A DNA stretch of 52,364 bases from a virus (Duplodnaviria; Caudoviricetes): positions 1-52,364 of IMG/VR virus record IMGVR_UViG_3300030380_005007; one strand, given 5' to 3'. A model generated the notes under the pieces. The model was not told the DNA's origin. It was given only the letters and a program-made list of their open reading frames with translations, and made no database searches. The translations under genes and the position numbers were made by a program. Positions 24,650 to 24,890 of this stretch are shown piece by piece. Within the stretch, counting starts at the first letter, position 1, and the number at the start of each line of letters is the position of its first letter.

Positions 24650-24890
24650 GCAGGCAAATACGTCTGGCCTGTTAAAATATTAAGAAGACGCTTTAGCCGT
24701 GCAGGTCTTTTTCATACCCTGCCTCCGTAACTTTGAGGTGTAGTTACCGGCGCAAACACCTCACCTATTTTAGTCGTCGCGGGTCCTTTTTTATTTTTCA
24801 TTCCCGCGTTTGGTAATGACGGGGTTTTTCCATTTCCTCGTATATAACTCTAAGGCGTAGTTAACGACGAAACGCCTTACTTTTCTTTTT
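24650..24890 (+). ncRNA. Putative structured RNA: three H-type pseudoknots and three hairpins with anti-start-codon loops
   Basis: GTAACT/AGTTAC + TGAGGTGT/ACACCTCA (24727-24763) and TAACT/AGTTA + TAAGGCGT/ACGCCTTA (24845-24879) show two compensatory changes; ends in U-tract. Confidence 0.65.

What the first reader, a model, noticed from the sequence alone, without database searches (positions are those of the whole stretch)
24650..24890. Array of covarying pseudoknots alternating with anti-start-codon hairpins
Seen: order PK0 (CAGGC/GCCTG + CGTCT/AGACG, 24651-24690), hairpin H1 (24701-24722), PK1 (24727-24763), H2 (24778-24808), H3 (24819-24841), PK2 (24845-24879), U-tract. PK1 and PK2 share one architecture (TAACT/AGTTA stem, 1-nt loop, 8-bp stem 2), and stem 2 has two compensatory changes (TGAGGTGT/ACACCTCA versus TAAGGCGT/ACGCCTTA). 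All three hairpin loops read UUUUU(C)CAU, the reverse complement of AUG(G)AAAAA, flanked by CCU/CCC anti-SD-like bases. Partial in-genome matches exist (25563-25572, 15365 start, 28677 start) but are not unique. Inference: a polycistronic sRNA cassette whose pseudoknots stabilise or delimit guides against host or phage start codons. Alternatively the ~36-nt pseudoknots mimic ToxI-type (type III TA) antitoxin RNA, as described for phage phiTE.
Basis: partly seen in the sequence, partly recalled or inferred. Interest (0 to 1): 0.82.

Follow-up and report, generated by a model that had tools for sequence, protein, structure and literature searches.

The report
Pseudoknotted RNA domains between phage genes
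The stretch holds two tandem copies of a previously undescribed folded RNA domain (a three-way junction locked by a pseudoknot) that recurs in many uncultured marine phages and most likely marks and protects transcript ends rather than acting as a set of guide RNAs.

Summary
PK1 (24728-24763) and PK2 (24845-24879) are the only two matches in the window to a strict H-type pseudoknot architecture, against 0.11 expected by chance. The hairpins with UUUUU(C)CAU loops are present.

The structure is larger than described. The 5' part of pseudoknot loop 3 pairs with sequence upstream of the hairpin(s) to form a helix I call P3. Each unit is therefore a junction (P3, hairpin, S1) locked by pseudoknot stem S2.

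I collected 60 distinct module sequences from IMG/VR marine phage contigs. They show 13 S1 types, 11 S2 types and covarying P3 and hairpin stems. Rfam 15 has no match.

Modules lie after a DUF669 (SSB-like) gene or between the orf63-like and orf89-like genes, once or in tandem. In one lineage a module sits at a convergent operon end. In most modules S2 is followed by C(C)UUUU.

Best reading (about 0.45): a leaky, pseudoknot-capped intrinsic terminator or attenuator that also caps the transcript end.

The sRNA-guide cassette and ToxI-mimic readings are not supported. No expression data could be obtained.

The parts
24651..24690 (+). 'PK0': hairpin CAGGC/GCCTG (conserved in relatives, G.U in group B), an AU-rich stretch with an extended -10-like TGTTAAAAT (24670-78), and a putative second stem CGTCT/AGACG
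   Evidence: The second stem is invariant in groups C and W and absent in group B. TGNTAWAAT is not enriched in the window: 5 hits against 10.75 expected.
24696..24699 (+). P3 5' strand of module 1 (GCCG), pairing with CGGC 24748-51 inside loop 3 of PK1
   Evidence: It is 5-6 bp in relatives: GCCGA/UCGGC, GCCGY/GCGGC, GUUGCG/UGCAAC.
24701..24722 (+). H1, the hairpin arm of module 1, loop UCUUUUUCAUAC
   Evidence: The stem covaries in relatives.
24728..24763 (+). PK1: S1 24728-32/24742-46, L1 24733, S2 24734-41/24756-63, L3 24747-55
   Evidence: Model R2 matches 24683-24778 with E = 1.8e-17.
24774..24779 (+). Probable P3 5' strand of module 2 (UCGUCG), pairing with CGACGA 24865-70 and enclosing H2 and H3. 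It overlaps the base of H2 by 2 nt.
   Evidence: 6-bp run. There is no sequence variation in the one close relative, so this is untested. The model's own P3 fit for module 2 is poor.
24778..24808 (+). H2 hairpin, 19-nt U-rich loop ending UUUUUCAUU
24819..24841 (+). H3 hairpin (one G.U, which places the fold on the + strand), loop UUUUUCCAUUU
   Evidence: The relative L002/L056 has A-U at the G.U position.
24845..24879 (+). PK2: S1 24845-49/24859-63, L1 24850, S2 24851-58/24872-79, L3 24864-71
   Evidence: Model R2 matches 24801-24894 with E = 2.2e-5.
24880..24890 (+). U-tract CUUUUCUUUUU directly after S2 of PK2. The orf89 start codon follows at 24916.
24449..24640 (+). orf63, the conserved small gene upstream of the module in groups B, C and W. 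No family match.
24916..25185 (+). orf89, a conserved gene downstream of the module (directly in groups C and W, one gene further in group B). No family match.

Best explanation
Each unit is one compact RNA domain on the + strand. A closing helix P3 is formed by sequence 5' of the hairpin(s) and the 5' part of pseudoknot loop 3. One hairpin arm (two in module 2) and stem S1 make up the rest of the junction. The loop of S1 pairs with the 3' tail to form S2, with a 1-2 nt L1 and no L2, so S1 and S2 should stack coaxially. S2 is the last helix to form during transcription, and in most members C(C)UUUU follows it directly.

I read the domain as a transcript-boundary element. S2 plus the U-tract acts as a leaky intrinsic terminator or attenuator. 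It separates a promoter-proximal gene set (orf78-orf63 here; the AAA_24 ATPase and DUF669 gene elsewhere) from downstream genes that must be expressed by read-through. Here those are orf89 and the terS-like orf205. The knotted junction then caps the terminated or processed RNA end against exonucleases. The window has two units in tandem. The first has a weak U-tract and the second a strong one, which should strengthen the block.

Shown: the fold by covariation, the family, its positions and the U-tracts. Inferred: termination, read-through and end protection.
For: Fold.
- In 16 group-B sequences, 100% of 400 pair cells are paired and 9 pairs change on both sides; 0 of 500 shuffles reach this.
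- Across four groups (20 sequences), 98.9% of cells are paired and 16 of 25 pairs change on both sides: P3 5/5, H 6/7, S1 3/5, S2 2/8.
- Among 60 distinct modules there are 13 S1 and 11 S2 pair types.
- Retrieval on the S2 sequence alone gave S1 complementarity in 41 of 42 viral contigs and in 0 of 31 bacterial chance hits.
- All 7 new contigs retrieved by protein only carry the module, each with a compensated S2 variant.
- G.U pairs place the fold on the + strand.

Boundary role.
- In L025 the module fills the gap after the AAA_24-DUF669 operon and faces convergent minus-strand genes, so no co-directional gene follows it.
- The same position after a DUF669-like gene is occupied in lineages A, A' and L193.
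- 22 of 29 distinct core+tail sequences have at least 5 U in the 10 nt after S2. The S2 hairpin alone folds at -7.7 to -12.3 kcal/mol.
- The minimum-free-energy fold picks S2 in both window copies.
- The downstream SD or AUG follows within 16-58 nt, which leaves no room for a promoter.
- Tandem copies recur in four lineages.
- Helix lengths are conserved while sequences change freely. That fits a mechanical or architectural role better than a ligand pocket.
Against: - No expression data: no RNA run holds the stretch.
- The consensus terminator scan does not call these sites, because read as a plain hairpin S2 has a 13-16 nt loop.
- 7 of 29 distinct tails have fewer than 5 U. These include the internal copies of the L156/L162/L168 tandems (1-2 U), so the domain exists without a terminator tail.
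- The phage uses an ordinary hairpin terminator elsewhere (26298-26322). The domain occurs at only one or two sites per genome, which points to a more specific job.
- The gap, including about 50 nt upstream of P3, is much better conserved than the flanking proteins.
- A hairpin loop motif UUAUUCAU recurs in five lineages. A plain terminator explains neither observation.
- Alignment A6 was fitted to the nested model, which inflates pairing counts for P3, H and S1.
- P3 runs of 4-5 bp are common by chance: with shuffled L3 the mean best run is 4.5, against 5.47 observed.
Confidence: 0.45

Rival explanations
1. Regulated switch. The domain is a leader or operator whose folding is controlled by a phage or host protein, such as an antiterminator, the DUF669 SSB-like protein, orf63 or orf89. 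Alternatively it is controlled by a small ligand or by ribosomes on the upstream ORF. The switch would decide between termination and read-through, or control translation of the next gene.
For: - The arrangement is leader-like: small early genes, then the structured RNA with a terminator-like end, then SD or AUG within 16-35 nt.
- The whole gap is more conserved than the flanking genes.
- The loop motif UUAUUCAU and the linker CUCC are conserved in family 1.
- In group A the upstream ORF's stop codon lies inside the domain just after the P3 5' strand, so a terminating ribosome would melt P3.
- The association with a DUF669 gene recalls SSB autoregulation at a pseudoknot in T-even phages (recalled, not from a call).
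Against: - No junction nucleotides are conserved across the superfamily. J2 is UCCAG, CUCCG, UAAAAGG, UGUAAAG or UCAUAA in different lineages, which argues against one ligand pocket.
- No mutually exclusive alternative fold was found.
- No RNA-binding domain was found in the neighbours.
- The copy at the convergent site has nothing downstream to regulate.
Confidence: 0.2
2. Stand-alone stable non-coding RNA(s) of about 90-200 nt, made from their own promoter and ended by S2 plus the U-tract. They would act in trans as a base-pairing sRNA using the U-rich UUCAU loops or as a protein sponge or decoy.
For: - An extended -10-like TGTTAAAAT lies at 24670-78, conserved in groups C and W, with TGTATAAAC in group B, about 8-17 nt before a shared purine-rich AGAAG-like start region.
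- The 3' end is terminator-like.
- Loop sequences are conserved.
- Complementarity between loop and start codon reaches 7-8 nt in groups W and C: UUUCAUA with UAUGAAA (I3), and ACUUUCAU with AUGAAAGU.
Against: - The promoter motif is not enriched in the window: 5 hits against 10.75 expected.
- Group A modules overlap the upstream ORF.
- The family 2 copies have no conserved -10.
- The seed AUGAA fits 15 of 74 gene starts, so it is not specific, and it fails for the usual group B downstream gene.
- Downstream genes abut the U-tract and would then lack a promoter.
Confidence: 0.15
3. An exoribonuclease-resistant roadblock in the 5'-to-3' direction, or a barrier to RNase E scanning. It would protect the downstream cistrons (orf89 and the terS-like gene, or the helicase operon), in the manner of viral xrRNAs, which also occur in tandem.
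For: - The topology is the same as I recall for flavivirus-type xrRNA: a three-way junction whose third hairpin loop pairs with the 3' tail (for the fold; the xrRNA side is recalled).
- Tandem copies occur in four lineages.
- The domain sits directly 5' of the SD or AUG.
Against: - No pairing of the 5' end into the junction (ring closure) was found.
- No Rfam xrRNA family matches.
- The copy at the convergent site has no downstream cistron.
- The host and its RNases are unknown.
Confidence: 0.1
4. A type III antitoxin (ToxI-like) mimic that neutralises a host ToxN-type abortive-infection toxin.
For: The pseudoknot core is about 35-37 nt, and the setting is a phage.
Against: - There is no head-to-tail array. 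The two copies are 117 nt apart and most relatives have a single copy.
- No ToxN/AbiQ domain lies nearby.
- The core is embedded in a junction, and its stems change sequence freely with compensation. That fits poorly with sequence-specific recognition by a toxin.
Confidence: 0.03

Closest known systems
Intrinsic (Rho-independent) terminators and attenuators, including tandem terminators and the promoter-proximal terminated leader of lambdoid late operons (the latter recalled)
   Same: A stem (S2, 7-8 bp, 3-5 G-C pairs) is followed directly by a U-rich tract. It sits at an operon end or between an early gene set and downstream genes. Tandem copies occur.
   Different: The terminator stem is the second stem of an H-type pseudoknot. 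Its 13-16 nt 'loop' is tied up in two further helices (S1 and P3) of a junction. Some copies lack the U-tract. Only 1-2 sites per genome use it.
T2/T4 gene 32 mRNA autoregulatory pseudoknot (recalled from the literature, not from a call)
   Same: An H-type pseudoknot with a 5-6 bp S1, a 7-bp S2, a one-nucleotide L1 and no L2. It is followed by an unstructured A/U-rich stretch up to the ribosome-binding site, and it is linked to an SSB gene.
   Different: Here the SSB-like (DUF669) gene is upstream of the element, not downstream. Loop 3 forms an extra helix (P3). The A/U tract is only about 8-35 nt. There is no sequence similarity.
Flavivirus-type exoribonuclease-resistant RNAs (xrRNA; recalled)
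   Same: A three-way junction plus a pseudoknot between a hairpin loop and the 3' flank, often in tandem.
   Different: No 5'-end-to-junction pairing is seen, and no Rfam match. This is a DNA phage, and one copy sits at a 3' operon end.
ToxI RNA of type III toxin-antitoxin systems and the phage pseudo-ToxI (recalled)
   Same: A pseudoknot-forming unit of about 36 nt. Phages can carry mimics.
   Different: No tandem head-to-tail array, no toxN partner, and free covariation of the stems.
Lambda nut and HK022 put antitermination RNAs (recalled)
   Same: Structured RNA placed after the first small early genes and before delayed genes.
   Different: The fold is different (two plain hairpins in nut and put). 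Here the element itself carries the terminator-like end.

Membership tests
Intrinsic terminator | G+C-containing stem immediately followed by a U-rich tract | tested here: met
   S2 is 7-8 bp. 22 of 29 distinct core+tail sequences have at least 5 U in the next 10 nt. Window PK2 has 8 of 10 and PK1 has 5 of 10.
Intrinsic terminator | Short hairpin loop (about 3-8 nt) | tested here: not met
   Read as a hairpin, S2 encloses 13-16 nt. The consensus scan does not call either site.
Intrinsic terminator | Lies at the end of a transcription unit | tested here: inconclusive
   Met at the convergent junction in L025 and its relatives. In the window and in groups A, B and C, a co-directional gene follows within 16-58 nt.
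Intrinsic terminator | RNA 3' ends map to the U-tract | not testable with these tools
   No RNA run holds the stretch.
ToxI / type III antitoxin RNA | Head-to-tail array of ~34-36 nt repeats | tested here: not met
   Tandem Repeats Finder finds no array in 24641-24915. The copies are 117 nt apart.
ToxI / type III antitoxin RNA | Adjacent ToxN/AbiQ-type endoribonuclease gene, or identity to a host ToxI | tested here: not met
   No Pfam or PHROG match for the neighbouring ORFs. None of the 31 bacterial hits to the S2 pattern has the S1 stem. The host is unknown.
T-even gene 32 pseudoknot operator | H-type pseudoknot with 1-nt L1, ~7-bp S2 and coaxial stems | tested here: met
   for this RNA. The T-even dimensions are recalled.
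T-even gene 32 pseudoknot operator | Located in the 5' leader of the SSB gene it regulates | tested here: not met
   The downstream genes are orf89-like, a 73-aa ORF, a cytosine methyltransferase-like gene or orf66-like. Where a DUF669 gene is present, it lies upstream.
xrRNA (flavivirus type) | Three-way junction with a hairpin-loop to 3'-flank pseudoknot | tested here: met
xrRNA (flavivirus type) | 5' end pairs into the junction to close a ring; conserved core nucleotides | tested here: not met
   No consistent pairing of the 5' flank was found by eye across groups. No Rfam match at E up to 5-10.
Any Rfam 15 family (riboswitches, ribozymes, phage RNAs) | Covariance-model match | tested here: not met
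   No match in the window at gathering score. Only chance-level hits at E up to 10 in 24400-25100. No hit at the modules in L025 or L016 at E up to 5.
Riboswitch | Invariant junction or pocket nucleotides across members, and metabolic gene context | tested here: not met
   Junction sequences differ between lineages. The neighbours are replication or unknown genes.

The most novel reading that the evidence does not exclude
These are a new class of RNA domain in DNA phages, a junction locked by an H-type pseudoknot whose shape is conserved while its sequence is free. The pseudoknot stem itself would serve as the terminator stem, and the knot would resist exonucleases, making it a bacterial-virus counterpart of xrRNAs. 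Alternatively the domain is the operator for an SSB-like DUF669 protein or an antiterminator that times read-through into the orf89 / terS-like genes.
Probability: 0.25. Interest if true: 0.8.

Novelty: new variant of a known kind. Interest (0 to 1): 0.62.

Why it matters
A pseudoknot with covariation support in all four helices, found in dozens of abundant uncultured marine phages, is absent from Rfam. I also found nothing on it in the literature searches I ran.

If the pseudoknot stem is the terminator stem, the known repertoire of intrinsic termination signals grows. Terminator predictors that require a small hairpin loop would then be missing a class of sites.

If it is an exonuclease block or a protein operator, it gives a handle on how streamlined marine phages stage early versus later gene expression. 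Almost nothing is known about that.

It is short (about 70-95 nt) and modular, so it can be tested directly in vitro.

Tried and rejected
- **Rfam:** the whole window at gathering score, 24400-25100 at E up to 10, and L025 plus L016 at E up to 5. Nothing matched at the modules. The hits (DUF2815, 5.8S, snR49, IMES-1) are far below their cut-offs.
- **tRNA/tmRNA:** none.
- **Cultured phages:** no DNA match for the gap or the group-B gap. No tblastn match for orf89 or the L168 DUF669 protein. TerL is 58-62% identical to Pelagibacter phages HTVC027P and HTVC023P and two others. 41 kb of HTVC027P holds no module by model or by architecture scan.
- **Sequencing runs:** 20 DNA holders and no RNA holder listed.
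- **Minus-strand reading:** a 29-aa ORF crosses H2-PK1 on the minus strand, and a 14-codon + strand ORF starts at 24816. Neither is kept in relatives (seen), so both were rejected. G.U pairs exclude a minus-strand fold.
- **S2 as Shine-Dalgarno / anti-Shine-Dalgarno mimic (GAGGUG/CACCUC):** rejected as the selected property. Variants UGAGAUGU, UGAGGUAU, GAAGCGC and UAAGGCGU keep pairing but not SD likeness.
- **Closing helix between the 5' purine-rich AGAAG region and the U-tract:** not consistent across groups when checked by eye.
- **Promoter TGNTAWAAT:** not enriched.
- **orf89 versus group-A orf95/97:** no significant similarity.
- **Flanking proteins:** Pfam, PHROGs and the protein atlas gave no function for orf63 or orf89.
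- **Dropped rows:** L018, L138 and L146 are chance matches without the architecture or context. 47 of 70 hits of the loose family-2 pattern were chance.
- **Papers:** I saw only search listings and abstract starts. Supplements are closed. Those of PMC9599517 (uncultivated HTVC023P-type genomes) might list related genomes.

Full report
**Setting**

The window is a whole IMG/VR virus record of 52,364 bp, estimated 96% complete. Its large terminase is 58-62% identical to those of Pelagibacter phages HTVC027P and HTVC023P and two other marine phages. Its early and replication region has no cultured relative.

The finding lies in a 275-nt gap (24641-24915) between two + strand ORFs:
- orf63 (24449-24640)
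- orf89 (24916-25185)

These sit inside a short + strand island, 24211-26300. Neither ORF matches a family.

**Observation**

PK1 and PK2 are a 28-nt direct repeat (79% identity), each with a perfect 8-bp inverted repeat. I scanned both strands of the window for the exact architecture: S1 of 5 bp, L1 of 1 nt, S2 of 8 bp, no L2, L3 of 7-12 nt. The scan returns only these two sites, against 0.11 per shuffle.

The nested minimum-free-energy fold picks H1, H2, H3 and both S2 stems. Its z-score is ordinary (-1.06), and the method cannot score pseudoknots.

**Relatives**

*By protein.* A search with orf89 found five contigs. Most have a shorter gap: PK0, one hairpin, one pseudoknot, a U-tract and then the ATG. 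S1 differs with compensation: TAACT/AGTTA, TGACC/GGTCA, GGACT/AGTCT.

*By S2 sequence.* A scan of IMG/VR with the S2 sequence alone returned 42 contigs. Of these, 41 carry a complementary S1. They fall into three groups that sit in front of different genes. The same pattern in 185,579 bacterial and archaeal genomes gave 31 hits. None has S1 or a U-tract, which serves as a useful negative control.

*By protein profile.* A search with an orf89 alignment (A3) puts no constraint on the RNA. It added 7 new contigs. All 7 carry the module, each with a compensated S2 variant: UGAGGUAU/AUACCUCA or UGAGAUGU/ACAUCUCA.

**A larger fold**

In every group, the first 4-7 nt of loop 3 are complementary to sequence just 5' of the hairpin:

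| Group | 5' strand | Loop 3 strand |
|---|---|---|
| B | GUUGCG | UGCAAC |
| C | GCCGU, GCCGC or GUCGC | GCGGC |
| Window relative (L056 PK1) | GCCGA | UCGGC |
| Window PK1 | GCCG | CGGC |
| A | GGGGCUU-type | AGGCCCU-type |

This helix (P3) closes a three-way junction of P3, the hairpin H and S1. S2 is a pseudoknot from the S1 loop to the 3' tail.

Covariation counts:
- On 16 group-B sequences, all 400 pair cells are paired and 9 pairs change on both sides.
- On 20 sequences from four groups, 98.9% of cells are paired and 16 of 25 pairs change on both sides: P3 5/5, H 6/7, S1 3/5, S2 2/8. No shuffle out of 500 reaches this, and every slid control sits near 40-50% paired.

Caveats:
- That second alignment was fitted to the nested model. 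S2 was not part of the model.
- Short P3-like runs are common by chance: the shuffled mean is 4.5 bp against 5.47 observed. The constant position and the compensated variants are what support P3.
- For window module 2, the best P3 partner is UCGUCG 24774-79 with CGACGA 24865-70. This encloses both H2 and H3 and would make a four-way junction. It is untested, because the one close relative is identical there. The model's own P3 fit for module 2 is poor.

**One superfamily, few copies per genome**

Group-B genomes hold a second module elsewhere with different sequences but the same dimensions: S1 UGUCU/AGGCA, S2 (A/G)AGCGC-type, P3 GACAA or GACAG with UUGUC or CUGUC.

Other lineages carry hybrids (S2 UGAAGUGU/ACACUUCA or UGAAGUGC/GCACUUCA). 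They also place either type at the same syntenic site. I therefore treat them all as one family.

In total I counted 60 distinct modules, with 13 S1 and 11 S2 pair types.

Models built from the alignments find only the two copies in the window. They find one or two sites in five longer records. They find none in HTVC027P.

**Context**

Modules occupy three kinds of position:
1. Directly after an AAA_24 ATPase - DUF669 (SSB-like) operon. In lineages A, A' and L193, co-directional genes follow (Pfam). In group B the module faces convergent genes, so it ends the transcription unit there.
2. Between the orf63-like and orf89-like genes in groups B, C and the window. Extra genes are sometimes inserted right after the module: a 73-aa ORF or a cytosine methyltransferase-like gene.
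3. In tandem in four lineages: the window and its close relative, L156/L162/L168, L193 and L196.

After S2 comes C(C)UUUU. Of 29 distinct core+tail sequences, 22 have at least 5 U in the next 10 nt. The exceptions include three internal tandem copies with 1-2 U. Where a gene follows, its SD or AUG is 16-58 nt away.

**Interpretation**

I commit, at about 0.45, to a transcript-boundary element. S2 forms last, next to a U-tract, and should act as a leaky terminator or attenuator. The knotted junction should stabilise the resulting end. The window's two units would work in series ahead of orf89 and the terS-like orf205.

Shown:
- the fold
- the family
- the positions
- the U-tracts
- the one unambiguous operon-end case

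Inferred:
- termination
- read-through
- end protection

Several facts count against a plain terminator:
- The domain is rare within each genome, while an ordinary terminator is used at 26298-26322.
- Some copies lack a U-tract.
- The gap is more conserved than the flanking proteins.
- The recurrent UUAUUCAU hairpin loop remains unexplained.

For these reasons a regulated switch (0.2), a stand-alone ncRNA (0.15) and a 5'-to-3' roadblock (0.1) stay open.

The ToxI idea fails both of its defining features that I could test.

**Comparison and novelty**

The pseudoknot core has the dimensions I recall for the T2/T4 gene 32 operator. The junction-plus-pseudoknot topology resembles what I recall of viral xrRNAs. 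The end resembles an intrinsic terminator. It is a member of none of these by the tests listed under membership.

No Rfam family matches. Three full-text searches returned nothing relevant. Of those papers I saw only listings and abstract starts.

The comparisons with gene 32, xrRNA, ToxI, nut/put and the lambda late leader come from memory, not from calls.

**Limits**

- There are no expression data.
- The host is unknown.
- The covariance models could be run only on loci I had fetched, so the true range of the family is not known.

Noticed in passing
window 25186-25527: 8 of the window's 14 exact TTTTGTCA sites, in both orientations, cluster in this 342-nt stretch of the next gap. It lies beside an AT-rich run (25419-25459) and just upstream of the terS-like orf205 (25683-26300). 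This looks like an iteron or operator array: a pac site, an origin or a repressor site.
   Followed up: partly
window 26298-26322: An ordinary hairpin terminator (11-bp stem, 3-nt loop, U-tract) lies at the convergent junction after orf205. The phage therefore also uses canonical terminators.
   Followed up: no
L189, L191, L192, L194, L195, L200, L156, L158, L162, L168 (gap after the orf68-like gene): In the A' lineage a separate hairpin, CCGG-UUAUUCAUGU-CCGG (with loop variants), sits upstream of the junction-pseudoknot domain. It carries the same loop motif that groups B, C and the window have inside the domain's hairpin arm. The conserved UUAUUCAU loop is unexplained.
   Followed up: partly
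L025 11473-11691; L036 and L042 downstream of the module; L074 2397-2460: The position right after the module is a hot spot for gene gain and loss. It holds a 73-aa ORF (MLKADG...), a cytosine-5 methyltransferase-like gene, or nothing. In L074 only a remnant of the 73-aa ORF is fused to the module tail.
   Followed up: no
window 19828-19890: After the window's own DUF669 gene there is no pseudoknot module. Instead there is a long imperfect hairpin (CUAGG..GAGUC..GACUC..CCUAG) at the convergent junction.
   Followed up: no
window 24160-24200: The divergent gap before orf78 holds sequences that look promoter-like by eye (TTGCTT ... TATACT on the + strand). The scan tool lists only a minus-strand site (TTTACA N17 TACATT, 24181-24153). 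This is the likely start of the orf78-orf63 transcript.
   Followed up: no
L018 2582-2674 and L089: An unrelated contig with many GGTACCGCA-type repeats matched the S2 pattern by chance.
   Followed up: no
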